The notes under the pieces were generated by a model. That model saw nothing but the letters and a program-made list of their open reading frames with translations, was not told the origin of the DNA and ran no database searches. Shown piece after piece: positions 1 through 42,793 of a stretch of 53,968 bases of DNA. The translations under genes and the position numbers were made by a program. Source of the stretch: a virus (lineage: Duplodnaviria; Caudoviricetes); the IMG/VR virus record IMGVR_UViG_3300049020_000042, positions 1 to 53,968 of that record; one strand, 5' to 3'. How positions within the stretch are numbered: position 1 is the stretch's first letter; each line of letters opens with the position of its first letter.

Positions 1-1
1 G

Positions 2-139
2 TTCTTGACAGTATTCATCCTAAATTGGAGAAAGCCTGGGGAGGACGAGCTTGATAAGCTTCAGGAAAGATTATCTGATTATGACTTCGTGAATTACAAT
101 GGCCACATTCCTGTTTTCGAGAAGAAAAAGGGTATTTGA
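2..139 (+). CDS. 3' end of hypothetical protein (truncated by window)
   Basis: Open frame from base 2 to TGA at 137-139 (FLTVFILNW...EKKKGI*), same strand as downstream genes. Confidence 0.5.
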   Translation, partial: FLTVFILNWRKPGEDELDKLQERLSDYDFVNYNGHIPVFEKKKGI

Positions 140-185
140 TAAAATAGCTCCTCGCCAGTAAAATATGGCACAAGGAGCTATTTTC

Positions 186-563
186 ATGACAGAGCATTCA
201 ACTATTTTCGTTACCTTCCAGAAAGAAGGTATTCATCGTTATCCAGCAGCAGCGACAGATCCCAAGCTCGCGACTGGTGACGAATATGATGTGAGTTTCC
301 TCGCCCACCCACATCGCCATATGTTTCACTTCCGAGTTACCATGGAAGTTTTCCATGATGATCGTGACGTTGAATTCATTCAATTCAAGAGATGGTTGGA
401 AAAGTTGTACAGTGACAAAACGTTGGTTCTGGATTACAAGAGCTGTGAAATGATGGCTAGAGAATTGTCCACCACGATTTTCGCGAAGTACCCCGACAGA
501 AGTCTGTCTATTGAAGTATCTGAGGATGGAGAAAATGGCGCAACACTCGCATTCACTCGCTGA
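186..563 (+). CDS. dpdL: QueD-like T-fold protein, candidate 7-carboxy-7-deazaguanine decarboxylase (DpdL type)
   Basis: LAHPHRHMF (LxxxHRHxF) in place of QueD CxxxHGH, plus SCE and VSEDGENG; AAGGAG RBS before ATG 186; folE/queE neighbourhood. Confidence 0.7.
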   Translation: MTEHSTIFVTFQKEGIHRYPAAATDPKLATGDEYDVSFLAHPHRHMFHFRVTMEVFHDDRDVEFIQFKRWLEKLYSDKTLVLDYKSCEMMARELSTTIFAKYPDRSLSIEVSEDGENGATLAFTR

Positions 564-834
564 TAAAGCAGCGAGGATATTCCTGATATCTACTGGAGTA
601 GCCAGTCGTGATATCAAGCGGTATCAACGATATAAAGTTCTCAAAGACAATGCTGATCGTTTGATGCATGTTTACGATTCTGTCTCAAACAACGATCTCT
701 TCAAAGCTGAGACGCAGTTGAAGATTGTTCGCGAAGTTAATGGCATCAATGAAGAATGTATTGCTCTCAAATCGAAGTTTGGTAGATTTGCCATCGCGAT
801 GGAACTCCAGGACGAATTGGCAAACAGACCTTGA
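535..834 (+). CDS. hypothetical protein
   Basis: ORF overlapping both neighbours; start moved to ATG 535 after GGAGA. Confidence 0.55.
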   Translation: MAQHSHSLADKAARIFLISTGVASRDIKRYQRYKVLKDNADRLMHVYDSVSNNDLFKAETQLKIVREVNGINEECIALKSKFGRFAIAMELQDELANRP

Positions 835-1262
835 TTCGTTCTTCAGGTGAAAGTAAAATTGGCACTCTAAACAAGGAGTGCCAATTGTTTTTCCAACAGA
901 TTATCGTCAGAGTCAAGCAGTTCTTCTCTGAAGTCGACCGTAGGAAGACTGCATCAGCTCTTAGAAAGATTGCTGAATACGAAAAACAGAATTCTGCAAG
1001 ATTGCAGTCACTGGCTGCAATCAAGGATGATTACAACTTTACATATTACAACGTTCAGATGGCGTTCGTGAAAATGATTTCGACTCAAATTCAACGATAC
1101 GAGATACATCGTCAATGCTCACCAGGAGCATTTGCTGAGGAAATGATTCAGCAAATGAGTTCTGATCTTGAGCAACACGAAAAGGATGCTAAATCGACAT
1201 TTGATAAGCTCAGCCCGCAATATCAAGAACGAGTAATCTTAGAAAAGTTGTCCGAAGATTAA
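831..1262 (+). CDS. hypothetical helical protein
   Basis: 143-aa ORF coupled to upstream stop; start uncertain (TTG). Confidence 0.55.
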   Translation: MIRSSGESKIGTLNKECQLFFQQIIVRVKQFFSEVDRRKTASALRKIAEYEKQNSARLQSLAAIKDDYNFTYYNVQMAFVKMISTQIQRYEIHRQCSPGAFAEEMIQQMSSDLEQHEKDAKSTFDKLSPQYQERVILEKLSED

Positions 1263-1264
1263 TA

Positions 1265-1293
1265 TTGAGCGGCGTTGATGGAAATGCCATAAT
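1265..1293 (+). promoter_or_regulatory. sigma70-type promoter (probably leaderless mRNA)
   Basis: TTGAGC-17-CATAAT with TGn extension; ATG 6 nt after the -10. Confidence 0.6.
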
Positions 1294-1299
1294 AATGGC

Positions 1300-2400
1300 A
1301 TGACTAACACCATCTACATCGTCGATCTCGAAAGCGTCCCCACCCGTTACACTTGTCAATGGAAAGCGGGACTTCCAAACTCACTGCGAGAGTTCGTAAA
1401 ATCTCTTGGTACTGGGCATCAAGTAGTCAACATCAGTGGTGGTGATGTTGAAATGATTGCCACCCCAGGTGCGTTCCTCAACTTCGCAGGGACGAACGTT
1501 TACAAAAGCAATCAAGCCATTGAAATCTCCAAACTGTTCTCCGAGGGGAAAGTTCGTGATGGTGATCGCTTCCTATTCACCGATGCATGGAACCCCGCAA
1601 TCATCATGGTAAAGTACATGGTAGAGCTTCTGGGGATCAAAGCAGAGCTTCACGGAATTTGGCATGCTGGGTCATATGATCCGCAGGATTTCCTCGGTAG
1701 ACTGGTAAAGGACAAGCGTTGGAGCTTGTCAACTGAGAATGCCATCTATCATGCTCTTGACTACAATTACTTTGCAACCAACTTTCATATCAAACTGTTC
1801 CGTGACAATGTCCTCAACACGGTGGGTTTTGGTTCCAACCACGATGAGTCCAAGAAAAAGATGGTCCTCAGCGGCCAGCCACATGAGCATTTGATGTCGC
1901 ATTTGACACCATTCCGTGGTATGAAAAAGCGTGATTTGATCTTGTTCCCTCATAGAGTTGCGCCCGAGAAGCAGCCTGAAATCTTCCGTGATCTGGCCAC
2001 TTACCTGCCAGAATACGAATTCGTGGTTTGCCAAGATAAGCAGCTAACCAAGGATGAATATCACACACTTCTGGGTGAGTGCAAGATGGTGTTCAGCGCT
2101 AACTTGCAAGAGACTCTTGGTATCTCTGCCATGGAAGGCATTTACCTAGATGCCCTTGCTCTAGTTCCAGATCGTTTGTCATACTCTGAAATGTATGGCG
2201 ATCACTGCAAATATCCGTCCTTCTGGACTGAAGATTTCAATACCTACCAATTCCATCGTGATGAACTCGTGGCTCTAATCCGTGAAAAGATGACCAACTA
2301 CGAACGTGACATCAACCTGGTCTGGGAACAGAATGTCAAACTGGTAAGAGATTATCTTACTGGTGAAGTCATGTACAAAAACCTTACGACAGTGAGATAA
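1300..2400 (+). CDS. GT-B (GT4-like) glycosyltransferase
   Basis: FPHRVAPEKQPE and QETLGISAMEG (ExxGxxxxE) donor-binding motifs, VPDRLSYSEM; 366 aa. Confidence 0.85.
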   Translation: MTNTIYIVDLESVPTRYTCQWKAGLPNSLREFVKSLGTGHQVVNISGGDVEMIATPGAFLNFAGTNVYKSNQAIEISKLFSEGKVRDGDRFLFTDAWNPAIIMVKYMVELLGIKAELHGIWHAGSYDPQDFLGRLVKDKRWSLSTENAIYHALDYNYFATNFHIKLFRDNVLNTVGFGSNHDESKKKMVLSGQPHEHLMSHLTPFRGMKKRDLILFPHRVAPEKQPEIFRDLATYLPEYEFVVCQDKQLTKDEYHTLLGECKMVFSANLQETLGISAMEGIYLDALALVPDRLSYSEMYGDHCKYPSFWTEDFNTYQFHRDELVALIREKMTNYERDINLVWEQNVKLVRDYLTGEVMYKNLTTVR

Positions 2401-2402
2401 GC

Positions 2403-2885
2403 ATGCATCGGAACAATTTCATAGGTACCTTTAGCTCCGTCATGGGGAAACTCAAGGGTTGGGATGAATCATTCATTGATTCTTATCTTTACAAGATTAG
2501 CGAGATCAAGATCAATCCCAAGCAACAAACTGAGGTCACTCTGACGTTCACCGAAGATTTCGAATCGAAGGTTTTGGAGAGGCTTTTTGATTTGTCCAAT
2601 GAGATGACCGCCAACAGTGAGATTCATTTCAAGTTGGCATTTAGGGCGAAGAACGGGAAAAAGATTGTCCGTCAAATAATTATACCAGTTGAGGATATTG
2701 ATGTCACTCTAAATGAATTTGATTACAATTGTCGTGACAACCGGAATAGCCAGATTGTAGTCAAACTCAAATACTCGGAAACAAAAGTTGAAGTATTCAA
2801 AGTCGAGGAAGCCAATGAAGATGGTGATGTTTATGCAGACGAAGATGACTTTGATTATGAAGATGATGACGATTCTGATTATTGA
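2403..2885 (+). CDS. divergent tail-tube-fold protein with acidic tail
   Basis: VTLTFTEDFESKVLERL, VTLNEFDY and IVVKLKY align by eye to the tail tube at 32049-32642. Confidence 0.5.
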   Translation: MHRNNFIGTFSSVMGKLKGWDESFIDSYLYKISEIKINPKQQTEVTLTFTEDFESKVLERLFDLSNEMTANSEIHFKLAFRAKNGKKIVRQIIIPVEDIDVTLNEFDYNCRDNRNSQIVVKLKYSETKVEVFKVEEANEDGDVYADEDDFDYEDDDDSDY

Positions 2886-2900
2886 GATACGGTTGAAATT

Positions 2901-3302
2901 ATGATTCCACAACCATTCATTGTTTCGAATTTTAGAGTGCGATTCATGTCGATGATTGGTGTGCTCACAGATGATTTCAAAACGATGTCATCGCAAGTTA
3001 CTGGAGTGGATCAATTTGATCTGGCCGTTGAACAGGGTGGCGATTTGATGGTCAACATCAGACAAGATGACAAGGGTGTTGTTTTTCGTGAACTGACTAG
3101 ATTCATGGCTTCTGCAAAGGGAGATTCTGATTGTTGCATCATCATCGAACAACTTGATACAAAAAGTGATGACATTCGAGTGAAACTGAAATTCAGTAAT
3201 TTGAATTGCAAACTGACGTACCAGAAATTGAGATATGCAGTCCTAGATGCTCATCAACTTAATTTGATGATTGCTTACAAATCATGGGAATTGGTAAATT
3301 AG
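2901..3302 (+). CDS. divergent tail-tube-fold protein
   Basis: NFRVRF, SSQVTG, VNIRQDD, IIIEQLDTKSDDI and LNLMIAY collinear with tube KFRVRV, SQQVMT, IELRDD, YLETLDGGNDTI and ISLEVRY. Confidence 0.6.
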   Translation: MIPQPFIVSNFRVRFMSMIGVLTDDFKTMSSQVTGVDQFDLAVEQGGDLMVNIRQDDKGVVFRELTRFMASAKGDSDCCIIIEQLDTKSDDIRVKLKFSNLNCKLTYQKLRYAVLDAHQLNLMIAYKSWELVN

Positions 3303-3314
3303 AAGATAAATAAT

Positions 3315-3436
3315 ATTGTAAGCATCACGAGGATGCTTACAATGGTGATAGTTGATTTAACTAGGGTGGCATCGCAATGATACGTCCTTCCATAACATGA
3401 GGTTATGGTAAATTTTCGCAATATGAGGTTGCAAAA
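3315..3436 (+). promoter_or_regulatory. structured folE 5' leader (three AYGAG-loop hairpins)
   Basis: Stems 3315-3343, 3390-3408 and 3413-3436 with loops ACGAG/ATGAG/ATGAG; the last holds the SD; TAAATA at 3307. Confidence 0.6.
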
Positions 3437-3437
3437 C

Positions 3438-4115
3438 ATGAGCTACAATAAGAATAAATGTGATCCAGAGTTGGGCAAAGCAGTCCAAGCACACTTGGAA
3501 AAGTTGGGTCTCCACACCCCCATGTCCACCAATACCCTGAATGCAAAGCAAAAGATCGCCAAGATCGAAAAGCACATGCAGGGTATCATGCAAACTTTGG
3601 GACTGGATCTCACTGACGACTCCTTGATTGAAACGCCTATTCGCGTTGCCAAGATGTACGTCAACGAGGTATTCTGGGGTCTTGATCCAGAAGCATTCCC
3701 CAAATGCACCGCAGTAGACAACAAGATTTCCTATGATGAAATGGTAGTTGAAGAAGACATTACTGTGATGTCAAACTGCGAACACCACTTCGTAACCATC
3801 GACGGCTTTGCCACCGTAGCCTACTTGCCCAACAAGAAGGTCTTGGGTCTGAGCAAGATGAATCGCATCGTGGAATACTTCAGCAAGCGCCCACAGATTC
3901 AAGAACGTCTAACCGTTCAGATCGCCGAAGCACTCAAGTTTATTCTTGACACTGAGCATGTGGCCGTTCTCATTAACGCATCACATTATTGCGTGAAGAG
4001 TCGTGGTGTTGAGGATACAAACTCCCACACTATTACTAGCCACCTGAGCGGCAAGTTCAGGGAAGACGCTTTGGTTCGTGGTGAATTCATGGCACTGGCC
4101 ACCAGACGCAAGTAA
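3438..4115 (+). CDS. folE: GTP cyclohydrolase I
   Basis: ETPIRVAKMY, CEHH, GLSK, RPQIQERLT and HYCVKSRG; start at ATG 3438 after GAGG. Confidence 0.97.
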   Translation: MSYNKNKCDPELGKAVQAHLEKLGLHTPMSTNTLNAKQKIAKIEKHMQGIMQTLGLDLTDDSLIETPIRVAKMYVNEVFWGLDPEAFPKCTAVDNKISYDEMVVEEDITVMSNCEHHFVTIDGFATVAYLPNKKVLGLSKMNRIVEYFSKRPQIQERLTVQIAEALKFILDTEHVAVLINASHYCVKSRGVEDTNSHTITSHLSGKFREDALVRGEFMALATRRK

Positions 4116-4135: not shown

Positions 4136-4172
4136 GCCCTCAGATAAATATTCCTTTATCTGGGGGCATTTT
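4136..4172 (+). promoter_or_regulatory. hairpin containing late promoter TAAATA and sequestering the RBS; possible folE terminator
   Basis: 13-bp stem 4136-4148/4155-4167; TAAATA 4145-4150; GGGGG in 3' arm; ATG at 4174. Confidence 0.65.
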
Positions 4173-4173
4173 C

Positions 4174-4668
4174 ATGGCTGTACTACAGGGCAGGAGTCCT
4201 AAAACAACATTTGCCAATCTTCTTACTGTAGAGGGAGGATTGACCGTATCTTTGACGCCGGTAGAGAGTGGTGGGGGAAAAACAACCCCATTGAAGCTTT
4301 CAACCACTTCGATTTCAATTCACGATTTAACTTTTCCATCCACAGGCGTAGCCGCTGGTAAGGTACTGACTATCTCTGCTGATGGTCTATCCATGGAATG
4401 GAAAACACCTGCGGCAAGTTCAGGTGGCGGGGGTGGTGGAACAGTTCTGGAGACCGAAGCCGACGCGATCTATTACGAATACAACGATGATGAAGTCGTG
4501 AGTGTGATGACTGAGCATTTTGGTTCTGAGACCAGAGTAACCACCTATAGCTACAGCGTAACTGGCAAGGTGGACACTATCACAATCGAATATTTGGGTC
4601 AAACTCGAATCGAAACTTACACATACATCAACGGCAAAGTGACCTCTATGGTTGCTTCTTCTCTTTAA
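4174..4668 (+). CDS. tail-fibre-associated structural protein
   Basis: GKVLTISADG..EWK fibre-type motif, Gly linker, YD-like repeats; late promoter. Confidence 0.6.
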   Translation: MAVLQGRSPKTTFANLLTVEGGLTVSLTPVESGGGKTTPLKLSTTSISIHDLTFPSTGVAAGKVLTISADGLSMEWKTPAASSGGGGGGTVLETEADAIYYEYNDDEVVSVMTEHFGSETRVTTYSYSVTGKVDTITIEYLGQTRIETYTYINGKVTSMVASSL

Positions 4669-4680
4669 AGGTTTTCCAAA

Positions 4681-6924
4681 ATGGCATTTGATCCAATCAC
4701 ATACAACGAAGTTCTTTCAGGCAAGAATCCAGTTGGTACGCTTCTCCGAGTGGTTAGCGACTTCCAAGACCCCAAATATATCGACTCTGGTGCAAGCTTC
4801 AGCTCAGATCTCTACCCAGATCTGGCTACAAAAGTTCCTGGTGGCTTCCAGGGTGACTACGTGAAAGAAATCCCCATCGCCAGTCTGCCATCAAGTTTCA
4901 GTTCTTCATCTGCTGCCTTGGGTTCATACCTTATTGGTTTCGTGTCCGATGGTAAGATGAATTTCCTCTTCGCTAGCAGTGGTGTTATCACACGCTACAC
5001 GTCAGTATCAAGCAATATGGCTGATGGTATCGTATTCAATGGTTACTTCGTAGTTCCTGGTGGTACAGGCTCTGACACCGTGACTCCGGAAATGTCAGTC
5101 AACAACGATGGTACGTTCATGTACGCGTCGCTGGCTGATAGGCATTATCGCTTCGATTTGTCAGATCCCACACTGGCCACCTACAAGAGATTCACCCTCC
5201 CGACTTCCACCAACAGATACAAGTTTGCTGATGGTAATGGTTTAATCATGGCAGCGGCAGGCAACATCAGCGTGTCTGGGAATATCCACTATTCGTCAAA
5301 TGGCGGTGATAGCTGGACGGTTGGTGGCATCGCGACTAACACCGCTGGTAGTAGCCCACAAGGTCTGAGTTATGGCGCAGGTGTATTTGTTATGGTCACT
5401 GCCGCATCAACCAACAATATCACTAGATCAGCTGATGGTGTTACTTGGACTACCCAGACCGCTGGTTCGATTGGCCACAACGCCGTTAAATTCAATCCAG
5501 TGTTGAGTTTGTTTGTAACCACTCCATTCAATACTGGCGCAGCGTATTCATCCCCCACGGGTGTGACCTGGACTGCTAGAACGTCCATCAATGGTCAACA
5601 ACGAGTCATCAGTATTTCATCCCTGACCGGTGACATGATTTGTTCACCTACTTCAAACTCCAGTGGTGCAAACAGTGGTTTCTGGAGGAGCTCAAATGGC
5701 ACTTCATGGGCAAACAGACAAACCACTACTCCGTTCAGCACCACAACCAACAACGCCTACCGGGCTATCTACGCCGTGGACAGTTTTCCAGGGTTTGCAA
5801 TTGCGTTCACGGGTCCGGCAAACACAACTGGTTACGGTCCAATGTTGTATTCATTCAGCACGGATAGCGGGGCGACATGGAGTTCTGTCAGAAACGTACC
5901 ACCCACCAATGCAACCACCAAAGCATTCCGTCCACCAGTCATGAGTAGCTCTGGTGATAAGATTGTGTTGATGGAAACCCTCGCCAGTGGTAACGATCAA
6001 GTGTCAAATACTTGGAATGGTATTCTGTCAACTGACGGTGGTGATAATTGGCAAGCATTTGCTATTTCAGCCGGTACTGAAATGGTTTATTGGAAGGAAG
6101 TGATTCCAACGTTTGATAACAAGTTGATTGCTTGGGGTCAAGCATCCAATGATACCGCAACCGCTAGAGCAATGTGCACCGCAGTAACGAGCGATGGTGC
6201 CTCTTGGCAATATACGTCATATACCGCATTGCCTGTTGGTTTGCAGTCTATCACGCCCTCAACCGTAGCTATTGGTAACGATAATCGCTTATATTTTGGA
6301 AATAACTCCACGAGTACTGGTGCGATGTCAGCTGATTATGGTGCTACTTGGACTCAGAAAGCTCTTCCATTCACTGGTGGTAAATTGGTATCATTCAAGA
6401 GTAGGATCATGATCTTGGTGAACGGTCAGGTACCACGTTATACCGTTGACGGAGCGACTAACTGGCTTACTGGTCAATTGTCATCTCTGCCCGCCACCAC
6501 TCCTATTGGATTTGCCGCAAATGATAGAGTTGCCGTTGCCGTGATTGCCAACTCAGCTTCATTCTACTACACATATGATGGTGTGATTTGGATGCTGGGT
6601 ACTTTGCCGGCATCAATGCCCGGTTCAGTGGGTATTATCAATGATTGGATCATGTTCCCAACTGGTGCTGGTTCAATCTACAGAACCAAGGATTTCACAA
6701 ATTGGGATCTGGTGGTTATTGGTGATGACAACAAATATTCCACTATGGCTCTGAGTTCGATCTCCTCTAACCCGGCAGGTTCTGAAGGTTTCTTCCACGG
6801 AGTTGCCGCGAACAATACGGCTGGTTATCTGTTGAAGGCTGATACGGAAGTCACAGATCGTAGACGATTGCCAGTGATTGCCTCTGATCTCCCACACACC
6901 AAGTGGGTTGTATTGGCAAAATAA
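4681..6924 (+). CDS. Asp-box (BNR) beta-propeller tail fibre / receptor-binding protein
   Basis: About 11 SxDG(x)xW repeats (SSNGGDSW, SADGVTW, STDSGATW, STDGGDNW, SADYGATW); Ser/Thr/Gly-rich. Confidence 0.75.
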   Translation: MAFDPITYNEVLSGKNPVGTLLRVVSDFQDPKYIDSGASFSSDLYPDLATKVPGGFQGDYVKEIPIASLPSSFSSSSAALGSYLIGFVSDGKMNFLFASSGVITRYTSVSSNMADGIVFNGYFVVPGGTGSDTVTPEMSVNNDGTFMYASLADRHYRFDLSDPTLATYKRFTLPTSTNRYKFADGNGLIMAAAGNISVSGNIHYSSNGGDSWTVGGIATNTAGSSPQGLSYGAGVFVMVTAASTNNITRSADGVTWTTQTAGSIGHNAVKFNPVLSLFVTTPFNTGAAYSSPTGVTWTARTSINGQQRVISISSLTGDMICSPTSNSSGANSGFWRSSNGTSWANRQTTTPFSTTTNNAYRAIYAVDSFPGFAIAFTGPANTTGYGPMLYSFSTDSGATWSSVRNVPPTNATTKAFRPPVMSSSGDKIVLMETLASGNDQVSNTWNGILSTDGGDNWQAFAISAGTEMVYWKEVIPTFDNKLIAWGQASNDTATARAMCTAVTSDGASWQYTSYTALPVGLQSITPSTVAIGNDNRLYFGNNSTSTGAMSADYGATWTQKALPFTGGKLVSFKSRIMILVNGQVPRYTVDGATNWLTGQLSSLPATTPIGFAANDRVAVAVIANSASFYYTYDGVIWMLGTLPASMPGSVGIINDWIMFPTGAGSIYRTKDFTNWDLVVIGDDNKYSTMALSSISSNPAGSEGFFHGVAANNTAGYLLKADTEVTDRRRLPVIASDLPHTKWVVLAK

Positions 6925-7399: not shown

Positions 7400-7867
7400 A
7401 TGACAATTCCAAAACTTATCTACACTCACGACAGCATGGCTCGTGATTTACATTCCATGTACCGCACAATGCACCTCGAGGGCTTTAAGCCTGATGTGGT
7501 GGTTGGTATCACTCGTGGTGGACTCATCCCCAGCGTTTACGTCAGCCATTACTTTGATGTTGATTTGGTAACAATCAACGTGAGCTTTCGAGACACGAAG
7601 GTTCTTGAGCCAACGACTGAAATCGAGGAACTGCTCAAAGCTGGCAGAACCATCTTGCTGGTTGACGACATTTGTGACAGCGGTGAAACCCTTGAATTCA
7701 TCTATAACCAGCTGCAACAAACGGTGCCTGATCGTCTTGATACACAAATGAAGACCGCGGTACTTATTCATAACGAAGGCTGCCAAACCTTCACGCCTGA
7801 GTATTCCGGTACTACAATCAATAAATCGGAACAAGACGTTTGGGTGTGCTTTCCTTGGGAACAGTAA
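7400..7867 (+). CDS. purine phosphoribosyltransferase (Gpt-like, type I PRTase)
   Basis: VGITRGGLIP, LLVDDICDSGET PRPP loop, WVCFPWE; TTGGCT-17-TAAAAT upstream. Confidence 0.9.
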   Translation: MTIPKLIYTHDSMARDLHSMYRTMHLEGFKPDVVVGITRGGLIPSVYVSHYFDVDLVTINVSFRDTKVLEPTTEIEELLKAGRTILLVDDICDSGETLEFIYNQLQQTVPDRLDTQMKTAVLIHNEGCQTFTPEYSGTTINKSEQDVWVCFPWEQ

Positions 7868-7875
7868 TCTACACA

Positions 7876-8517
7876 ATGTATCAGATACGAAACTTGATCA
7901 ATGACAAGCTCTATATCGGTTATACGAAACAAGAGCCCATCAGCTATATCAGGAATCATTTCCGAAGAGCAAGGCTTGGTGAAGATCCCAACAAGTTGCT
8001 CTTCAAAGCCATTTTGAAATATGGTGAAGATGCGTTTGAGGTGACTTTGATTGCACAAACCACTGAAAAGGCAAACGCAACGTATCTTGAGAGATTCTTT
8101 ATTGGTGATCGTAATAGCCATGCAGTGTCAGGACATGGGTACAATTTGACACTGGGTGGTGATGGCGGAGATACTAGTCAATCGCCGAACTATAAAGCTG
8201 GTATAGCTAAAAGAGATCTTCGAGGTGAAAAGAATGGCAACTGGGGTGGATTCTCTGAGGATCACAAGAAAAACCTGAGTGCCGCAAAAAGAGGAAAGAG
8301 ACCCAAGAGTTGTGATGTTTGGTCAAAAGCTGCTACTGGCAAAATTTACCTTCACGATGCAATAAAAATGATTGAGAAAAGAGTTCACCCTGATGAAGCC
8401 ACCCAATTCAAGAATAATGGCTTCGTTCTTGGGAGACTGAAGTTAGAATGTAAAATCTGTGGCAAATATGCTGACGTTTCGAACCTGAAGCGCCACCATA
8501 GACACGATGAACAATAA
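7876..8517 (+). mobile_element. free-standing GIY-YIG homing endonuclease
   Basis: YQIRNLINDKLYIGYT, GYNLTLGGDG and NUMOD3-like SEDHKKNLSAAKRGK. Confidence 0.85.
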
Positions 8518-9639: not shown

Positions 9640-9828
9640 TTGAATTGGTCGAACAAAGTGATCATTCGAGTGCCTCATAAATTCTGCCAGAAAACACAAT
9701 ATTTTGATTGGTGGCGACTCTATCACACGTTGAAAGAGTTGAATCCTAACATTGTATATGGTGATGACATCATCATGGCATTCGATACCGAAATCGAAGC
9801 CGTGGAATTCAAATTGAAATATCTATGA
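9640..9828 (+). CDS. small protein, FExxxDxxxFKL-motif family
   Basis: Ends IMAFDTEIEAVEFKLKYL; start uncertain. Confidence 0.65.
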   Translation: MNWSNKVIIRVPHKFCQKTQYFDWWRLYHTLKELNPNIVYGDDIIMAFDTEIEAVEFKLKYL

Positions 9829-17511: not shown

Positions 17512-18798
17512 ATGTCCACCCTTAGCTCCCCATCCAATCTGAACCTCAATGATGAAGTGGTTCATGCCATCGTGGCAGCTCGCGTCAAGCTGCTCCTGGA
17601 AAAGCCGTTCTTCGGTAACTTGGCAACTCGCCTGATCCTCAAAGAGGCGGATGGTTGGTGCAAAACCGCAGCAACTGATGGCCGTCACCTGTATTACAAC
17701 CGAGAATTCATCAAGGGTCTGACGCAAGCTCAACTCCTGTTCCTGGTTGGTCACGAAGTGCTGCATTGCGTGTACGATCACTTGGGCCGCCGTGGTCAAC
17801 GTGACCCCAAGATCTGGAACATGGCGAATGACTACATCGTCAATGACACGCTGGTGAAGGAAGGCGTGGGCAAGATGCCTGAAGGCGGTTTGCTGGACAA
17901 CAAATACAACGACACGATGACTTCTGAAGAAGTCTACGAAATCCTGAAGAAGAACAGCGTCACGATCAAGATGCCTCTCGACCAGCATTTGGATGCGGCC
18001 GGTGACAGCAAGGGTGATGATGACGGTGATGGTAGTGGTGACGGTGACGGTGGCCAGCCCAAGAAAATGGGCAGCGGCAGCGGCGGCAAAACTGTTGATG
18101 TCACGGTCATGGGCAAGGACGGCCCACCCAAGCTGACTGAAGACGATCTGAACAAGATTCGTACTGAAATTCGCACCGCAACGATCCAGGCAGCACAAAC
18201 TGTTGGCGCTGGTAAGGTCCCCGCAGGCGTGCGTCGCATGATCGAAGAGCTGACCAGCCCCAAGATGGACTGGCGCACTCTCCTGGACTCGCACATCAAG
18301 AGCTCCATCAAGGACGACTACACGTTTGCCAAGGTGAACCGTCGTAGCTGGTCTCTGGGTGCATTCCTCCCCGGCCAGGATTACCTGGAAACCGTGGAAG
18401 TTGCTGTGGCGGTTGATACGTCGGGCTCCATGACTGACGAAATGCTGCGTGATATCCTGGGTGAAGTAAAGGGCATCATGGAAACTTTCCAGGACTTCAA
18501 GCTGACCTTGTGGACGTTTGACACCCAGGTGTACAACCCCAAGGAATTCACCAGTCACAACCTGGATGAACTTCTGCAGTACGATCCCAAGGGTGGTGGT
18601 GGTACGGACTTTGACGTCAACTTCGAGTTCATGAAGGAAAACGGTCTGGAGCCACATCGCTTTGTGATGTTCACTGACGGTTACCCATGTGGTAGCTGGG
18701 GTGATGAAAACTACACTGACACGTTGTTCGTGATTCACGGCAACACCAGCATCGTGGCTCCGTTTGGTATCACGGCATACTACGACGACGCCAAGTAA
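17512..18798 (+). CDS. zincin-like metallopeptidase + vWA protein (DUF2201-type MoxR partner)
   Basis: TAATDG, HEVLH (HExxH), Gly/Asp linker, MIDAS DTSGS, GGGTDF and FTDG. Confidence 0.92.
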   Translation: MSTLSSPSNLNLNDEVVHAIVAARVKLLLEKPFFGNLATRLILKEADGWCKTAATDGRHLYYNREFIKGLTQAQLLFLVGHEVLHCVYDHLGRRGQRDPKIWNMANDYIVNDTLVKEGVGKMPEGGLLDNKYNDTMTSEEVYEILKKNSVTIKMPLDQHLDAAGDSKGDDDGDGSGDGDGGQPKKMGSGSGGKTVDVTVMGKDGPPKLTEDDLNKIRTEIRTATIQAAQTVGAGKVPAGVRRMIEELTSPKMDWRTLLDSHIKSSIKDDYTFAKVNRRSWSLGAFLPGQDYLETVEVAVAVDTSGSMTDEMLRDILGEVKGIMETFQDFKLTLWTFDTQVYNPKEFTSHNLDELLQYDPKGGGGTDFDVNFEFMKENGLEPHRFVMFTDGYPCGSWGDENYTDTLFVIHGNTSIVAPFGITAYYDDAK

Positions 18799-22532: not shown

Positions 22533-23108
22533 ATGGAGGTTGCTATGGATTTGAGTATTCATGTTGGAGGAGACACACTGGTTTTGAACAGTGATGGTCT
22601 GCCTTTGGATATCATTCCCATTAGCACCGTGAGCTGGCGTGATGCCATTAAGGCTCAATACCAGGGCAATATCGACGTCTTGCATCACTATAGTGATTGG
22701 GTTGTTCGCAGCCCCAGTGTGGAGCTTCAGGTGCCATCGGTCATCATGATGCGTCAATGGGTTAAAATGGGTAGGAGAGTAAAGTTCTCCAGACGAAACG
22801 TGTACATTCGTGACCGTTTCACATGTCAGTATTGCAATGAGGTTTTCCCTCATGATGAACTGACTATGGATCACGTCGTGCCACGACTGGAAGGTGGTAA
22901 GACCGTCTGGAATAACATCGCTTCTGCTTGCAGCCCATGCAATCATGAAAAGAGTCACTTCAGCAAGATGAAGCCCAGGAATGCACCACGTAAGCCATCG
23001 TATGGTGAAATGTTGGCAATCCTGCGTACGAGCAAAATCACCATCCGTGATCCAGCTTGGAACTTCTACTTGGGATGGCCTGAACATTTAGTCACCATTC
23101 AACGATAA
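22533..23108 (+). CDS. HNH endonuclease (McrA-like)
   Basis: RDRFTCQYC, TMDHVVP and WNNIASACSPCN; TAAATA at 22521; true start may be 22545. Confidence 0.9.
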   Translation: MEVAMDLSIHVGGDTLVLNSDGLPLDIIPISTVSWRDAIKAQYQGNIDVLHHYSDWVVRSPSVELQVPSVIMMRQWVKMGRRVKFSRRNVYIRDRFTCQYCNEVFPHDELTMDHVVPRLEGGKTVWNNIASACSPCNHEKSHFSKMKPRNAPRKPSYGEMLAILRTSKITIRDPAWNFYLGWPEHLVTIQR

Positions 23109-28889: not shown

Positions 28890-29420
28890 TCAAGTGTTCT
28901 TTTGGCTCTGTTGCAATCTCATTTGTTTGATGAGTTCGTTTCTGTCTTCCACGATTGTGGTTTGGCCGTCAACCACTTCTCCAGCACCACCGGCACCAGC
29001 CTTAGTTTGACGTTCCACGATGTCGACCTTACGCTCCTCCAGCTTTAGCTTCTGAAGTTTCATTTGTGCATCTCTCTTGGAGTTCTTTGCATCAAGAGCG
29101 ATCTTCAACATGTTGGCTGCGGTTTCAAACATTCTTCCTGAAGATCTAGTGTCAACGTTATAACCCAGATCCATCAAGTCCTGGGAATGTTTGATGGCTT
29201 CTTTGTGAATGGCATCCATGGAACTTTCATGATCCCTTTCCTTCCTTTCATCAGCCATCTCTGGGGTTATCAGATTGTTTTCCAGATTTTCGATCAGCTC
29301 ATGGTTATCAGCCATCTCGTCAGTGATTTCAGGTTCGACTTCGCCTTCCTGATTGCTACTCGCTCTGAGTAGATCTTCTAGCACTGGCAAATCCAATGCG
29401 TCTTGGATGCTCTTACTCAT
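28890..29420 (-). CDS. possible terminase small subunit
   Basis: Acidic N-terminus, central helices (RMFETAANMLKIALDAK), DRNELIK tail; in late operon; inferred. Confidence 0.45.
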   Translation of the reverse strand: MSKSIQDALDLPVLEDLLRASSNQEGEVEPEITDEMADNHELIENLENNLITPEMADERKERDHESSMDAIHKEAIKHSQDLMDLGYNVDTRSSGRMFETAANMLKIALDAKNSKRDAQMKLQKLKLEERKVDIVERQTKAGAGGAGEVVDGQTTIVEDRNELIKQMRLQQSQKNT

Positions 29421-29848
29421 TGTTCTTTCCTTTTGATATGAAACGTCACGAAGTCCGGATCCGTGAGATTGGAATCTAATTCTCGTTCATAATTTGGTGG
29501 CATGTATCTGCTCACCATACGGTGATATACCTTGACTCTGCTGTCTTCACTCTTACTGGCAGAAAATACTATTTCCTTGGGTTGGTATTTTTCAATGAAT
29601 ATGTCCATGATTTTCTTCACGGTTGACATCACATCAAACTCACCACCATCATTTGTCATGTCATATACTTGATTCGCATCTCCAGAACCAAGTTGATAGA
29701 ACGACATATGCCAAATTCCTGTACTGTTGCTATCACCTCTAAAGATAATAGTTCTGTCACCCACATGAAAAGCGGCTTTGAACAGATATAAGCCTGTATT
29801 CATAATGTTGATTTCGGCTGGACGATTGAACAGTTCAAATAATTTCAT
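29417..29848 (-). CDS. putative head-internal protein (paralogue of 29845-30264)
   Basis: MKLFELF leader; YDMTNDG..F.VMSTV...FSAS...VY.RM. Confidence 0.6.
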   Translation of the reverse strand: MKLFELFNRPAEINIMNTGLYLFKAAFHVGDRTIIFRGDSNSTGIWHMSFYQLGSGDANQVYDMTNDGGEFDVMSTVKKIMDIFIEKYQPKEIVFSASKSEDSRVKVYHRMVSRYMPPNYERELDSNLTDPDFVTFHIKRKEQ

Positions 29849-30264
29849 TGCTTGTCCCTAGTTAGTGAAAAGATTCGATCAGAACTGTTGAGTGAATCTC
29901 TAGATGACTTGGTATAACCTGGAACTTCCAAGGAATTCATCATTCGACCGTAGAGTTTGGCATGGCCACTGTGTTGAGATCCTGAGAATTGAACTCTTTC
30001 TGGTTTCTTTTCTGCCATGAACTTCTTCAGGATTTCCAAGATTGTGGCCATACTCTTGAATGCATCACCGGAACCCGTCACATCGTAAGTTCTTTCGTTC
30101 TCGCTACCACCGCTGAACATAACTTCCCAATCATTCTCATATCCACTGGCTTTGAATCGAATCAAATTTCCATCCTGAGTGGTAAATTCTGCCCACCAGG
30201 AAAGGTCCGATGAAGACTTTACTTCATATTGATAAGTCTTGTCGAATAATTCTGTCAAAATCAT
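29845..30264 (-). CDS. putative head-internal protein (paralogue of 29417-29848)
   Basis: MILTELF leader; YDVTGSG..F.SMATI...FSGS...LY.RM. Confidence 0.6.
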   Translation of the reverse strand: MILTELFDKTYQYEVKSSSDLSWWAEFTTQDGNLIRFKASGYENDWEVMFSGGSENERTYDVTGSGDAFKSMATILEILKKFMAEKKPERVQFSGSQHSGHAKLYGRMMNSLEVPGYTKSSRDSLNSSDRIFSLTRDKQ

Positions 30265-30698
30265 TTCTTCCCACCTTTGTGGAACATCTGATCTTCAGTT
30301 AATACGCGGAAGGTCAGACCGTTCTTATGACACCAAGCCATCGCGGCTTGCCATTTAGCCTTATTTACCGCCAGGACCAACTTGTCTTTTTTACTTTTGG
30401 CTCTGTCATCATATGCTTCCTTGGCTGGCTTTACTTCGATGATCTCCGCACGTTTGTTTCCGTGTTTATCAACAAAAACAATCATGAAATCTGGGATATA
30501 GAAGGTCCACTTGCCAGTCAGTGGATGCATATAGGGAATTGACAAAGATTCACTAGCCCATTGAGTCACACTTGGATGTTGATCCAACACTCGCATTAGA
30601 CTCAATTCCCAGGATGAACGATATGTAATCGGACTCTTGCCGATATATTTTCCTGGGTTCTTGGGCTCGAAAAAACCCTGGCTGTATTTTGTGCTCAT
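30261..30698 (-). CDS. head completion nuclease (T4 gp4-like, TnsA-like)
   Basis: PKNPGKY, YRSSWE, WASE, YIPDF, EVKP, NKAKW and LTE. Confidence 0.9.
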   Translation of the reverse strand: MSTKYSQGFFEPKNPGKYIGKSPITYRSSWELSLMRVLDQHPSVTQWASESLSIPYMHPLTGKWTFYIPDFMIVFVDKHGNKRAEIIEVKPAKEAYDDRAKSKKDKLVLAVNKAKWQAAMAWCHKNGLTFRVLTEDQMFHKGGKK

Positions 30699-32047
30699 TA
30701 GAAATCGTTAGGATCAAAGTTGTCAAGAGGATTTGCCAGCTTTGATGACCTGAACCCCACTTGAGCTGTTGGATTTCTTGAGCTATTGAGAACACTCAAG
30801 ATATTGGAACCCGTGGAGCCACTCTGCATGAATGATGCAGCCATGCCCAGTTGTGGGATTCCCGAACCACTACTTGCACCAGCGGCACCTAGAGCTACAT
30901 CCAGGAGTTGACCGTTGATGGATTTTTGTGGGTTTGTGAAATAGTTGACCATGCTACTGGCGTTGCCAATTGCACCTTGTCCCAGAGAGATAACATCACC
31001 GTTGATGATCTGACCGATGGCATTGTTTCCAGTAACGACGTTACCGAAGTTCATGTTGCCCAAACTACCCAAGGCACCACCAGGTTTCAAAATACCACCC
31101 ACTGCACCACTGATGACGTTGCCCAGCTTGTCTCTGGCTTGTCCCAAAAGGTTACCAGTACCAAACATTTGATTCTGATTCAATGGGCTATTGTTGAACA
31201 GACTACCGGTGTTACCATATGAAGTTGATGGCACGTTGGGGTAATTTGGCGCACCAGGATCTGGCAGCGCGTATGCATCACCATCAACACCTGCCGCAAC
31301 CAAGACGTTCTTCACATCTTCTGATTGTGCGATATCTTGTGGAATTGCCTTGTTGTGAGTTATGATTGTCTCAAACTCCATACTCATACGAATGGTATTG
31401 GAATTGGGAGATTCATAATCCATTTCATCCGGATTGAAAGATGTGATCTTTGGATGAATCAAATCGAATTGAACGAACTTTCCACCAAACAGTTGATAGA
31501 CTTCAACTTTCTTGAAGAAGAAACTAGAGCTTAACGCTGATGCTTCGTTGGGTGAATCCGGGAGGGTGAAACCAAACCCTTCACCAGAGTTTAGGAACCC
31601 ATTGGGTCCAGACACAACATCATATGTCCAATCTGAATCCGTGGTATGACGTTGATCACCAAAATAGTAAGATGAGTATTCATTCCACATGCTGTGGACT
31701 ACCGAGTCCGTGGTATCGTGGAAGTCGATGTTAATCGCACCGTACTTGATTCCGGTTTGAATCAATCGCTTTTTGTTGTATTGGTTCAGCTCCTGGACAA
31801 TGGGGCTGATTGTAGGTCTATCGATTTTTCTTACTGCGATAGAAAGACCATCACTCCATGCTTGCCCGCCTTCACCCACATTACGGATGAAACGCACGAC
31901 AAACAGGAATTTTGGGCGTGGCACGGTAGTGGTAGCGCCTGTTGCGCTACCATTGAAAGATGCCTGATCTAATCCAAAATTCTTAGAAGCCTGTCTGGGG
32001 CTTCTAAGAATAAGCGGACGACCATTCTCGTCCGTAGTTTGAGCCAT
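30698..32047 (-). CDS. tube-fold baseplate/tail-tube junction protein
   Basis: IDRP, NQYNKKR, INIDFHD and MDY in the N-domain; Gly/Asn-rich C-terminus. Confidence 0.7.
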   Translation of the reverse strand: MAQTTDENGRPLILRSPRQASKNFGLDQASFNGSATGATTTVPRPKFLFVVRFIRNVGEGGQAWSDGLSIAVRKIDRPTISPIVQELNQYNKKRLIQTGIKYGAINIDFHDTTDSVVHSMWNEYSSYYFGDQRHTTDSDWTYDVVSGPNGFLNSGEGFGFTLPDSPNEASALSSSFFFKKVEVYQLFGGKFVQFDLIHPKITSFNPDEMDYESPNSNTIRMSMEFETIITHNKAIPQDIAQSEDVKNVLVAAGVDGDAYALPDPGAPNYPNVPSTSYGNTGSLFNNSPLNQNQMFGTGNLLGQARDKLGNVISGAVGGILKPGGALGSLGNMNFGNVVTGNNAIGQIINGDVISLGQGAIGNASSMVNYFTNPQKSINGQLLDVALGAAGASSGSGIPQLGMAASFMQSGSTGSNILSVLNSSRNPTAQVGFRSSKLANPLDNFDPNDF

Positions 32048-32048
32048 T

Positions 32049-32642
32049 TTAGATACCGATCATTGGGTTGCCTGGCAGAGTGATCTGTGGCACCAATGGC
32101 ATCAAATCGCCAGATTGTGTTGCGTTATCGTAACGAACTTCCAAGCTGATCGTCATCGGATCGCTGGAAGAGTAATCAAACGAACTGTAGTTCACGGAAG
32201 AAAGGAAACAACCTTCCAAGTACCATTGCTCGATGATGGTGTCGTTACCACCGTCCAAAGTCTCCAGGTAGGTGTTGAACTTGTAATTCACACCAGCCAA
32301 TGGGCTAGTTTGTTCGAAGTGGTTGGTTTGCTTTTGAACCTGGTGACCAACAAGGCGGGACACTGAGTTAGAAACATCGTCTCTGAGCTCAATGGAGATA
32401 CCTTGCCATTCATGCTTCGAGGCATAGTATGCCGTTGAAACATAGCTGTGAACTGTGACTGGACCTTGATTCAGAGAAGGACGGCTGGCCGTCATAACCT
32501 GTTGTGAGAGTTCCAGACCGCCTTGGACTGGTCCGAAGTTGATTACTCGGACACGAAATTTATGCTTGACCTTTGGTTGGAGAATACCGCCTCTACCGGT
32601 ACCACCACCCATTGGAACGCCGAACCGGCTTAACGTTGTCAT
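32049..32642 (-). CDS. tail tube protein (T4 gp19-like)
   Basis: QPKVKHKFRV, KHEW, LRDD, WYLEGCF, FDY and VRYD; GGGGA RBS; TAAATA at 32676-32671. Confidence 0.9.
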   Translation of the reverse strand: MTTLSRFGVPMGGGTGRGGILQPKVKHKFRVRVINFGPVQGGLELSQQVMTASRPSLNQGPVTVHSYVSTAYYASKHEWQGISIELRDDVSNSVSRLVGHQVQKQTNHFEQTSPLAGVNYKFNTYLETLDGGNDTIIEQWYLEGCFLSSVNYSSFDYSSSDPMTISLEVRYDNATQSGDLMPLVPQITLPGNPMIGI

Positions 32643-32718
32643 ATTGACTATCCCCCTAAGAGTGTTCTTGTATTTATGAAAAAATGACAAAAAATAAAGA
32701 GCACTTTTAGAAGTCAAT

Positions 32719-36599: not shown

Positions 36600-36690
36600 T
36601 ACCTTTTCTCCTACTGAGGAATTATCAAGTTATTTATCTGGAGGAGCGGTTTTTCAGCACCAACCAGACGATAACCTGAGTGTTAATTCT

Positions 36691-40603: not shown

Positions 40604-41198
40604 CTGGTTTCTTTTTCCGGTTAGTGTTGCCTTTTAATTTATCAGCAATCTTCTGTTTTGTTTCTTCTGTCCGAACCCAACTAGACATTTTGGATTTCGC
40701 TTCATCTGAACGAGTCTGGCCTTTTAACTTTTCAACTCTTTTTGCAATCCATTCAGGGTCCTGCTTTTTCCCTAACATATGATTACTTTTTCCTCTTAAG
40801 TGTTCGTGAAGCTTAGTCATAGCTTCCTTTTTTCGCTCACTTTTCTTTAAAGATTCTATTAAATTCGCTATATGCTCAGGAGTTTTTGCCTGTCCTTTCA
40901 GTCTAGACGAGATATATTTGGCATGTTCTTTTCTGAGCCATTCATAAGTTTTGCCATTTATTCGAACATCCGCCTTGTTCGTCATGAACCAAAATGCATG
41001 AATCATCGGGCCACCATGTATCCTAGCCAACAACCAATGAGCTATAAAGTGTTCTCGTGCAGTCAAATCAACCAAGTTATTAGCATCATCACTTCCGCCC
41101 ATTGAGCGAGGGACTATGTGATGTGATTCTTTATACGAAGTGAGAATTCGATCTTTGGCTTTTTCAATAAGCCTTGAATAATGATTTTCGTAATTCAT
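40593..41198 (-). mobile_element. free-standing HNH homing endonuclease with NUMOD3-like repeats
   Basis: ESHHIVPRSMGG, NLVDLTAREHFIAHWLL; SDEAKSKMS and TEETKQKI. Confidence 0.9.
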
Positions 41199-42729: not shown

Positions 42730-42751
42730 GAACCCATCCTGATGTTTCAAG

Positions 42752-42771
42752 TATTTATATGTCAATAAATA
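42752..42771. promoter_or_regulatory. divergent T4-type late promoters
   Basis: TATAAATA on - (42759-42752) and TAAATA on + (42766-42771) between the neck genes. Confidence 0.7.
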
Positions 42772-42793
42772 ACTGATAACGGAGTAGAAATTC

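What the first reader, a model, noticed from the sequence alone, without database searches (positions are those of the whole stretch)
2403..3302. Two hairpin-less tail-tube paralogues inside the DNA-modification cluster
Seen: both ORFs align motif by motif with the real tail tube (32049-32642). The ~25-aa segment SLNQGPVTVHSYVSTAYYASKHEWQ is cut to under 10 aa, and one copy has a long acidic tail. They lie 30 kb from the tail genes, with no TAAATA directly upstream. Known: the extended beta-hairpin of tube/Hcp folds mediates polymerisation. Inference: they may be non-polymerising caps or chaperones, decoys for tube-sensing immunity, or poisons of competing phage tails or host T6SS/tailocins.
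Basis: partly seen in the sequence, partly recalled or inferred. Interest (0 to 1): 0.75.

Follow-up and report, generated by a model that had tools for sequence, protein, structure and literature searches.

The report
Trimmed tail-tube copies outside tail genes
An uncultured giant soil phage carries two small, much-diverged copies of its own tail-tube protein that have lost the parts used to stack tube rings and sit among DNA-modification genes, so they probably act as soluble look-alikes of the tube subunit, though their job is untested.

Summary
ORF A (2403-2885, 160 aa) and ORF B (2901-3302, 133 aa) belong to a rare seven-member family. An HMM built only from members in other genomes finds B (3e-29), A (7e-11) and then the window's real tail tube (2e-4) among 238 window ORFs; the next hit is E 1.3. 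The family profile aligns end to end with the tube profile (hhalign 88.7%, E 2.6e-6). Missing from the family are 17 residues of the tube's beta2-beta3 long loop, 11 residues after the helix, the 19-residue N-arm and the 22-residue C-tail. A has a 27-residue tail of charge -16.

Neither gene has the ATAAATA late-promoter motif that precedes the tube and sheath genes. A starts two bases after the stop of a conserved 366-aa gene. Both are AT-richer than their neighbours. No homologue was found in 5 cultured relatives. Related copies occur in 3 of 16 large uncultured relatives, always in the same nucleotide-modification cluster.

Best reading: accessory, non-stacking tube mimics made before the tail. 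Function is unknown. The main rivals are a minor tail or assembly part and a role tied to DNA modification. The scan has noted similar trimmed tube copies in other phages.

The parts
2403..2885 (+). ORF A, 160 aa: diverged, trimmed tail-tube paralogue. The core is about residues 1-133. The true start is the ATG at 2403, because the beta1 motif NFIGTF lies upstream of the alternative Met14.
   Evidence: alignment A7. An HMM of the non-window members finds it at E 7.2e-11. Leave-one-out gives 1.1e-11. hhalign to the B profile gives 85%.
2802..2882 (+). Acidic C-terminal tail of ORF A (residues 134-160, net charge -16, ending in Tyr). It is absent from the other six family members.
2901..3302 (+). 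ORF B, 133 aa: trimmed tail-tube paralogue, the member closest to the tube in its motifs (IPQP, FRVRF, SQQVT, IRQDD, IIEQLD). The start at 2901 is supported by conservation of the N-terminus in P0003.
   Evidence: The ESM Atlas model has TM 0.67-0.74 to tube-protein clusters.
1300..2400 (+). Conserved 366-aa gene with no Pfam or PHROG family. Its stop codon lies 2 nt before the ATG of ORF A, which suggests a shared transcript and translational coupling. Homologues sit beside FolE, QueD-like or QueE-like genes in 34 IMG/VR loci and in 7 of 16 lineage relatives.
3306..3343 (+). ATAAATA late-promoter-like motif (3306-3312) followed by a 12-13-bp perfect hairpin (3315-3343), directly after the stop of ORF B. 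It marks the end of the A/B transcription unit. The next gene, FolE, starts at 3405.
3405..4115 (+). GTP cyclohydrolase I (FolE), the downstream flank of the A/B insertion in the nucleotide-modification cluster.
   Evidence: PF01227, E 3.6e-61.
32049..32642 (-). The real tail tube protein (197 aa), parent family of A and B. ATAAATA lies 35 nt upstream of its start.
   Evidence: phrog_4542, E 2.3e-56. Relatives include Phosso at 60%, Atu_ph07 at 55% and PA5oct at 50% identity. Motif position.
30698..32047 (-). Second, conserved tube paralogue (449 aa) directly after the tube gene. This is the ordinary structural paralogue of the lineage and is MS-detected in PA5oct and fENko-Kae01 virions. It is not part of the A/B family.
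   Evidence: phrog_13438 at 8.7e-19 and phrog_4542 at 2.2e-13. Synteny and MS notes.

Best explanation
What it is (shown). A and B are members of a small, fast-evolving family that derives from the gp19-type tail tube protein of this jumbo-phage lineage. The family keeps the tube core: the beta1 strand motif FRVRF, the QQV strand, the RDD-helix junction and the C-terminal strands. It lacks the tube's inter-ring parts: 17 residues of the beta2-beta3 long loop, 11 residues of the loop after the helix, the Gly-rich N-arm and the C-terminal extension.

How it works (inferred). Without these elements a subunit can at best form or join a ring; it cannot extend a tube. The genes are transcribed with nucleotide-modification genes rather than from the late promoters that drive the tube and sheath genes, and most relatives lack them. 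I therefore read them as soluble, non-stacking tube-subunit mimics made before or apart from tail assembly. They would bind something that normally recognises a tube subunit: either a host sensor, or the phage's own tube, sheath or assembly partners. They would not serve as stoichiometric tail parts. The acidic tail of A adds a second, charge-based binding surface.
For: Homology to the tube: (shuffle control), and 82. In one search the family HMM also hits the real tube genes of 3 of 16 relatives, at E 4.3e-4 to 0.012, with coordinates inside the tube loci. Weak matches point the same way: PF06841 in 2 of 6 members (best E 0.016) and phrog_4542 in 2 of 6 (0.013). For fold, the ESM Atlas model of B has TM 0.67-0.74 to nine clusters, most carrying tube families, and A has TM 0.45-0.56 to ten, most carrying or named as tube families.

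Trimmed contacts: with the roles of the long loop, N-terminus and post-helix loop taken from PMC9022992.

Not late: ATAAATA lies 29-38 nt before the tube, sheath, 4174, 14919 and 42794 genes, and 37-58 nt before the tube gene in 4 of 4 relatives examined. There is none upstream of A or B, or of the related Z genes. A's ATG is 2 nt after the upstream gene's stop.

Accessory: no homologue at E<=10 in 5 of 5 cultured relatives, two of which have MS-defined virions. Family members occur in only 3 of 16 large uncultured relatives. There is one other homologue among 1.84 billion representatives. GC is 38.9% and 38.6%, against 44.6-46.8% for the neighbours.

Precedent for mimicry: DSAD1 is reported to mimic the tube protein and so trap DSR2 (PMC10973363, abstract and passages).
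Against: There is no direct evidence on expression time, virion content or any binding partner. Early or middle timing is inferred only from the absence of a 7-nt motif and from operon layout, and read-through from upstream of the window cannot be excluded. Tube-fold proteins described so far are nearly all virion parts (my recall of the field). Jumbo phages scatter structural genes, and a fibre-like gene with a late motif lies 0.9 kb downstream. My own AlphaFold2 models (single sequence) were too poor to confirm the fold (pLDDT 47 and 43). Loss of the hairpin argues against binding hairpin-reading sensors such as Avs16. Family detection is insensitive: the G003 member was missed by the whole-genome search and found only by a local search. 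'Absent' in other relatives is therefore soft.
Confidence: 0.45

Rival explanations
1. Minor tail or tail-assembly component. In this reading A and B form a hairpin-less ring that starts, caps or adapts the tube, like a tube initiator or terminator. Alternatively they act as a chaperone that holds tube subunits until the baseplate is ready.
For: The tube fold is reused for terminators, initiators and connectors in tailed phages (recalled knowledge). Trimmed stacking loops are what a one-ring cap would have. Structural genes are scattered in this genome, and a late-motif fibre-like gene plus a BNR/Sortilin-repeat protein follow at 4174-6924. The lineage already tolerates extra tube paralogues in the virion.
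Against: An essential cap or initiator should be conserved. No homologue was found in 5 of 5 cultured relatives, and the family is in only 3 of 16 large relatives. There is no late motif upstream. The genes are tightly coupled to nucleotide-modification genes in all four genomes. GC is lower than in the structural genes.
Confidence: 0.25
2. Accessory of the DNA-modification machinery. In this reading a single, non-stacking tube-type ring, whose channel in real tubes passes double-stranded DNA, or a monomeric adaptor, works with the neighbouring enzymes. It could act as a DNA-encircling platform or recruiter, with A's acidic tail as a docking peptide.
For: Family genes sit inside the same cluster in four genomes at two different positions. 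A and B lie between the 366-aa gene and FolE in the window. The Z genes lie between an Ogg-type HhH glycosylase-like gene and the phrog_17812 gene in G002, G003 and G004; in G002 and G004 their start and stop codons overlap those of the neighbours.
Against: The linkage can be explained by common descent of G002, G003 and G004 and by local duplication. 4 of the 7 relatives that have the 366-aa gene show no family member. None of 34 other loci with that gene has one. No DNA-binding or enzyme motif was found. Real tube channels are described as lined with acidic residues (PMC9022992).
Confidence: 0.12
3. The resemblance is chance or the genes are decaying duplicates with no function: A and B would be small beta-rich ORFans unrelated to the tube.
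For: BLASTP, Pfam and PHROGs find nothing for A or B themselves. My own structure models are of low confidence, and Foldseek found no match at E<=0.001.
Against: See: full-length collinear profile matches far beyond the shuffles, with the tube as the only other hit in every leave-one-out run. Intact ORFs are kept at 43% (B vs P0003) and 58% (Z of G002 vs G004) identity, which argues for selection.
Confidence: 0.05

Closest known systems
The lineage's own tail tube protein (phrog_4542; distant PF06841 Phage_T4_gp19), window 32049-32642, with relatives in Sinorhizobium phage Phosso, Agrobacterium phage Atu_ph07 and Pseudomonas phage PA5oct
   Same: The core is collinear from the I-x-Q-P/FRVRV start to the C-terminal strands. 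The same PHROG and Pfam families appear as weak hits for 2 of 6 members.
   Different: The family lacks 17 residues of the beta2-beta3 long loop, 11 residues after the helix, the 19-residue N-arm and the 22-residue C-tail. It has no late motif, is not next to the sheath gene, is patchy in the lineage and scores below every curated threshold.
Second tube protein of this phage group (window 30698-32047; PA5oct gp286, Phosso XYS97558, fENko-Kae01 ENKO_234/235)
   Same: It is also a paralogue of the tube gene within the same genome.
   Different: It is conserved directly after the tube gene in all five cultured relatives examined and is MS-detected in virions. It is larger (449 aa) and is not hit by the A/B family HMM (E 1.1-2.3).
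Tail tube terminators and initiators with a tube-like fold (T4 gp3, gp48/gp54; lambda gpU). These names are recalled and come from no call.
   Same: They are small tube-fold proteins that form one ring and do not propagate a tube.
   Different: Those are conserved, essential, late-expressed tail genes. No sequence match to any such family was found here, and the A/B family is dispensable in most relatives.
DSAD1, the anti-DSR2 protein of SPbeta-like phages
   Same: It works-like only: a small phage protein reported to mimic the tail tube protein, occupy the sensor's tube-binding pocket and block abortive infection (PMC10973363, abstract and passages).
   Different: No sequence relation was tested or claimed. 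DSAD1 is not described in the passages I read as a tube homologue. Here the mimic would be a true homologue, and no sensor is known.
Hcp/TssD of type VI secretion
   Same: It shares the ring-forming beta-sandwich superfold with the tube (recalled).
   Different: No Hcp family hit appeared in Pfam. Hcp is a bacterial protein, whereas these are phage genes.

Membership tests
gp19-type tail tube proteins (PF06841 / phrog_4542) | Sequence match above the curated family threshold | tested here: not met
   A and B have no hit. The best among the family members is PF06841 at E 0.016, 15.5 bits, against a cut-off of 28.2, and phrog_4542 at E 0.013. Homology is seen only profile to profile.
gp19-type tail tube proteins (PF06841 / phrog_4542) | Beta-sandwich plus one helix (tube/Hcp fold) | tested here: inconclusive
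   ESM Atlas models: B has TM 0.67-0.74 to nine clusters, most with tube families, one of which meets the naming bar. A has TM 0.45-0.56. My own AF2 models have pLDDT 47 and 43 and gave no Foldseek match at E<=0.001.
gp19-type tail tube proteins (PF06841 / phrog_4542) | Extended beta2-beta3 long loop and N-terminal arm that join successive rings | tested here: not met
   There is a 17-residue gap at the tube's long loop: 8 residues of B face the 25-aa tube segment. The N-arm (tube residues 1-19) is unmatched, and 11 residues are missing after the helix. The role of these parts is from PMC9022992.
gp19-type tail tube proteins (PF06841 / phrog_4542) | Gene placed after the sheath gene and driven by late signals | tested here: not met
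   The genes are about 28 kb from the sheath and tube genes. There is no ATAAATA in 1-3305, whereas the tube and sheath genes have it at -35 and -38.
gp19-type tail tube proteins (PF06841 / phrog_4542) | Polymerises into the virion tube | not testable with these tools
   This needs virion proteomics or in-vitro assembly.
Tail tube terminator / initiator (tail completion) proteins | Conserved in all relatives that share the tail module | tested here: not met
   0 of 5 cultured relatives have a match at E<=10. Family members are in 3 of 16 large uncultured relatives.
Tail tube terminator / initiator (tail completion) proteins | Match to a described terminator or initiator family | tested here: not met
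   No such family appeared in the Pfam or PHROGs scans of the members.
Tube-mimicking anti-defence proteins (DSAD1-like, by mode of action) | Binds an immune sensor's tube-binding site without activating it | not testable with these tools
   No host or sensor is known. PADLOC and anti-defence libraries were not informative for this question and were not run.

The most novel reading that the evidence does not exclude
Tube-derived rings may have been recruited into DNA hypermodification. In this reading the trimmed copies form single, non-stacking rings or adaptors that work with the Ogg-like glycosylase, the 366-aa protein and the FolE/QueE-type enzymes encoded beside them in four genomes, for example as a DNA-encircling platform that holds the base-exchange enzymes on phage DNA. 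A second, less exotic novel reading is that they are true homologous decoys. Made ahead of the tail, they would blunt tube-sensing immunity while being invisible to hairpin-reading sensors. I put that reading at about 0.25.
Probability: 0.12. Interest if true: 0.85.

Novelty: new variant of a known kind. Interest (0 to 1): 0.6.

Why it matters
Tail tube proteins are treated as purely structural, and they are now known targets of bacterial immune sensors (DSR2, Avs16). This is a verified, selected family of tube copies that cannot stack, are encoded outside the late genes and are optional within the lineage. It suggests that phages reuse their own structural folds for jobs inside the infected cell.

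The same scan has flagged similar trimmed tube copies in unrelated phages (unchecked AI notes). This may therefore be one instance of a wider, undescribed class. The pair here is a convenient test case, with one copy carrying a strongly acidic tail and one without, plus clear orthologues in three relatives. Possible tests include mimicry of tube subunits, effects on tube assembly, and any link to 7-deazaguanine-type DNA modification.

My literature searches found no description of such proteins.

Tried and rejected
Searches and models that gave nothing:
- Pairwise BLASTP of A, B and the tube was not significant.
- Pfam and PHROGs gave nothing on A or B.
- tblastn of A, B and P0003 against 50,697 phage records gave no match at 1e-3 and only noise at E<=10.
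- The word-indexed protein search returned only the window's own proteins.
- The exhaustive phmmer search for B gave one real homologue, P0003. P0004 and P0005 are long repetitive proteins (a coiled coil and a repeat adhesin), and I discarded them as spurious.
- AlphaFold2 on single sequences gave pLDDT 47 and 43. Foldseek of these models against BFVD gave 0 matches at E<=0.001, so it is uninformative.
- Complex prediction, tube plus B: no verdict (score 0.08).
- PDB sequence searches had no significant hit. A full-length but non-significant alignment to 7aeb_Y (E 0.49) disappeared with the larger profile.
- The search for related loci with the B alignment (viral and metagenome collections) and with the Z alignment found nothing new. 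One search failed because the alignment had no conserved stretch.

Ideas considered and dropped:
- I suspected that the window's cut ORF 2-139 is the orthologue of the Z genes, but found no support: BLASTP gave none and hhalign gave E 0.41.
- In 34 loci with the 366-aa gene, no ORF matched A or B (best E 0.21 and 1.1 among 1,258 ORFs).

Sequencing runs:
- The phage recurs in a second soil study as identical short contigs.
- The one RNA-library contig that fits lies in FolE (3459-3675).
- The RNA pieces at 2837-2877 are low-complexity look-alikes of the acidic tail (7 and 5 differences in about 40 nt).
- Nothing can therefore be said about transcription of A or B.

Other:
- The number of ATAAATA motifs (9) is not above chance (mean 5.5). 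Only their positions are informative.

Full report
**Setting.** The window is an IMG/VR virus contig of 53,968 bp, estimated at 12% of a genome. It is therefore a fragment of a jumbo myovirus of roughly 430-450 kb. Its tube protein (32049-32642, minus strand, 197 aa) matches phrog_4542 'tail tube protein' at 2.3e-56. It is 60%, 55% and 50% identical to the tube proteins of Sinorhizobium phage Phosso, Agrobacterium phage Atu_ph07 and Pseudomonas phage PA5oct. It has 536 relatives at E<=1e-5, some on contigs of up to 607 kb. As in other jumbo phages, structural and metabolic genes are interleaved.

**The ORFs.** ORF A is 2403-2885 (160 aa) and ORF B is 2901-3302 (133 aa), both on the plus strand.
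- A's ATG lies two bases after the stop of a conserved 366-aa gene (1300-2400). B starts 15 nt after A's stop.
- After B come an ATAAATA motif (3306) and a perfect 12-13-bp hairpin (3315-3343), then FolE (PF01227, 3.6e-61).
- Further on lie a phosphoribosyltransferase and a QueE-like radical-SAM gene.
- The placing 'inside a DNA-modification cluster' is therefore right. That this gene set makes 7-deazaguanine-type bases is my knowledge of such clusters, not a test.

**Is the tube resemblance real?** Simple methods say no. BLASTP gives E 28 (A vs tube), 0.45 (B vs tube) and 0.076 (A vs B). Pfam and PHROGs give nothing. tblastn against 50,697 phage records gives nothing. The word-indexed search of 5.8 billion proteins returns only the window's own proteins.

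The first hint came from the ESM Atlas. Its model of B (pLDDT 0.57) has TM 0.67-0.74 to nine clusters, most carrying Phage_TTP_2 or gp19 families. A's model has TM 0.45-0.56 to ten clusters, most carrying or named as tube families.

**Building the family.**
- An exhaustive phmmer search over 1.84 billion representatives gave one true homologue of B. This is P0003, 133 aa, 43% identical, E 2e-23, from contigs of 1.2-1.5 kb. Two further hits were repetitive giants, which I discarded.
- I then collected 16 large relatives by their tube gene (57-71% identity). Three carry family members: G004, G002 and G003.
- I call one gene in each of these three genomes 'Z'. The G003 copy was seen only in a local search.
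- G002 carries a second copy, which I call 'X'.
- The seven sequences align over about 130 residues without large gaps (A7).

**Tests of homology.**
- A against the B profile: hhalign 85%, score 38.8, against 130 column shuffles with mean 11.4 and max 18.6.
- Family against the tube profile (35 sequences): 62% with six members and 88.7%, E 2.6e-6, with seven. The six-member score of 35.6 compares with 200 shuffles of mean 12.5, sd 2.6, max 26.6. The real alignment spans 128 columns, against at most 63 in any shuffle.
- An HMM built only from the five members of other genomes ranks B (3.1e-29), A (7.2e-11) and the real tube (2.3e-4) first among the window's 238 ORFs of at least 60 aa. The next hit is E 1.3.
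- In all 7 leave-one-out runs over 1,608 ORFs, the omitted member is first and the tube second.
- The six-member HMM also hits the genuine tube genes of 3 of 16 relatives (coordinates fall inside the tube loci).
- Weak hits to PF06841 and phrog_4542 are the commonest families among the members, each in 2 of 6.
- A alone against the tube is not significant (E 0.13).

I conclude that A and B are remote paralogues of the lineage's tube.

**What is missing.** In the alignment, B residues 2-130 cover tube residues 20-175.
- The quoted 25-residue tube segment faces 8 residues of B (15+2 gap columns).
- A further 4+7 residues are missing just after the helix.
- The tube's Gly-rich N-terminal 19 residues and its last 22 residues have no counterpart.
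- According to the review PMC9022992 (passages), the loop between beta2 and beta3 contacts the N-terminus of the next ring and carries most inter-ring contact. In contractile tails a loop right after the helix adds to it.
- All of these elements are trimmed. The inference that the copies cannot stack is therefore reasonable, though it rests on an alignment and not on a structure.
- My AlphaFold2 runs used single sequences and failed (pLDDT 47 and 43). Foldseek of those models was empty.

**Expression signals.**
- ATAAATA occurs nine times in the window. That number is not above chance (mean 5.5), but all but two overlapping copies (42752/42765, inside the long-ORF call 41659-42819) lie between genes.
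- The motif lies 29-38 nt before the tube, sheath, 4174, 14919 and 42794 genes. It also lies 37-58 nt before the tube gene in 4 of 4 relatives examined. It resembles the T4 late promoter TATAAATA (recalled).
- None lies between 1 and 3305, and none precedes the Z genes in G002 or G004.
- Sigma-70-like sites precede the genes at 165 and 1300.
- A and B therefore appear to be made with the modification genes and not with the tail. This is an inference from motifs only.

**Distribution and context.**
- No homologue of A or B was found in the complete genomes of Phosso, PA5oct, Atu_ph07, SCTP-2 and fENko-Kae01 (E<=10).
- All five keep the order tube, second tube protein, head-completion gene, and four of them show the sheath gene upstream. 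In two of them these tube proteins were seen by mass spectrometry.
- The window's ordinary structural paralogue is therefore the 449-aa gene at 30698-32047.
- The 366-aa gene occurs in 7 of 16 large relatives and in 34 other IMG/VR loci. None of those 34 loci has an A/B-like ORF.
- Only G002, G003 and G004 carry Z. Their 366-aa genes are the closest to the window's (55-62% identity).
- Z always lies between an Ogg-type HhH glycosylase-like gene (PF22175, 4.5e-9) and the phrog_17812 gene. In G002 and G004 its start and stop codons overlap those of the neighbours.
- A and B are inserted at a different point of the same cluster, and only in this phage.
- A and B are AT-richer (38.9% and 38.6% GC) than their neighbours (44.6-46.8%).
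- Intact reading frames at 43% and 58% identity between orthologues argue for selection.

**Interpretation.** The firm part is this: a rare, selected family of tube-derived proteins has lost the stacking elements, is optional in the lineage and is encoded in a non-late operon.
- The most likely mode of action is mimicry of a tube subunit inside the cell. The target would be either a host factor that recognises tube proteins or the phage's own assembly partners (confidence 0.45).
- A precedent for mimicry exists. DSAD1 is reported to mimic the tube protein and trap DSR2 (PMC10973363).
- Avs16 is reported to grip the tube hairpin (PMC13581612). These copies would escape such a sensor rather than soak it up.
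- The rivals are a minor tail or assembly part (0.25), a role tied to the modification enzymes (0.12) and chance or decay (0.05).

**Relation to earlier notes.** The scan's index lists several 'hairpin-less tube paralogues' in other phages. These are unchecked AI notes and I did not test them. They suggest that the phenomenon recurs on other DNA.

**Literature.** My searches turned up no paper describing such proteins. Of the papers cited, I read only search listings, abstracts and the passages returned by term searches. I opened no supplements.

Noticed in passing
window 3306, 4144, 14882, 22520, 32671-32677(-), 36631-36637(-), 42752-42771 (both strands), 49663-49669(-); also L063, L068, L055, L091: ATAAATA behaves as a late-promoter-like element. 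It lies 29-38 nt before the tube, sheath, 4174, 14919 and 42794 genes and is conserved before the tube gene of four relatives. At 4136-4167 and 49663-49669 it sits inside a GC-clamped hairpin, which may be a combined terminator and promoter.
   Followed up: partly
window 4174-4668 and 4681-6924 (+): A 164-aa ORF with a late motif at -30 and a 747-aa protein with Sortilin-Vps10/BNR (Asp-box) repeats are inserted between FolE and the phosphoribosyltransferase of the modification cluster. They may be a fibre or receptor-binding module, and they are absent at this position in G002 and G004.
   Followed up: partly
window 1300-2400 (+); L003-L036; L144-L150: A conserved 366-aa protein with no Pfam or PHROG family is found next to FolE, QueD-like or QueE-like genes in 34 IMG/VR loci of diverse phages and in 7 of 16 lineage relatives. 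It is an uncharacterised candidate enzyme of the base-modification pathway.
   Followed up: partly
L141:7414-7980 (G004), L140:6763-7404 (G002), L151:5109-5675 (G003): An Ogg-type HhH DNA-glycosylase-like gene (PF22175, 4.5e-9) lies directly upstream of the Z tube-like gene and the modification cluster. It could be the base-exchange enzyme of the system.
   Followed up: no
L140 14380-16833, L141 15307-17818, L153 and L154 (several); window 9640-9828: Relatives carry arrays of small paralogous ORFs (about 70-100 aa) ending in a motif like FKLTWL after the QueE-like gene. The window has at least one such ORF, ending in EFKLKYL.
   Followed up: no
window 7840-8517, 22533-23108, 40593-41198, 17512-18798: Four homing-endonuclease-type genes (GIY-YIG, HNH and others) are scattered through the window. 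One lies between the phosphoribosyltransferase and QueE, and one between the gp15-like gene and the endolysin.
   Followed up: no
window 29417-29848 and 29845-30264 (-): Two adjacent paralogous ORFs both match the C-terminal part of phrog_16075 (unknown function), downstream of the tube module.
   Followed up: no
window 3459-3675: A 217-nt contig from a soil metatranscriptome library is identical to part of FolE. Identical short DNA contigs of this phage also occur in a second soil study.
   Followed up: partly
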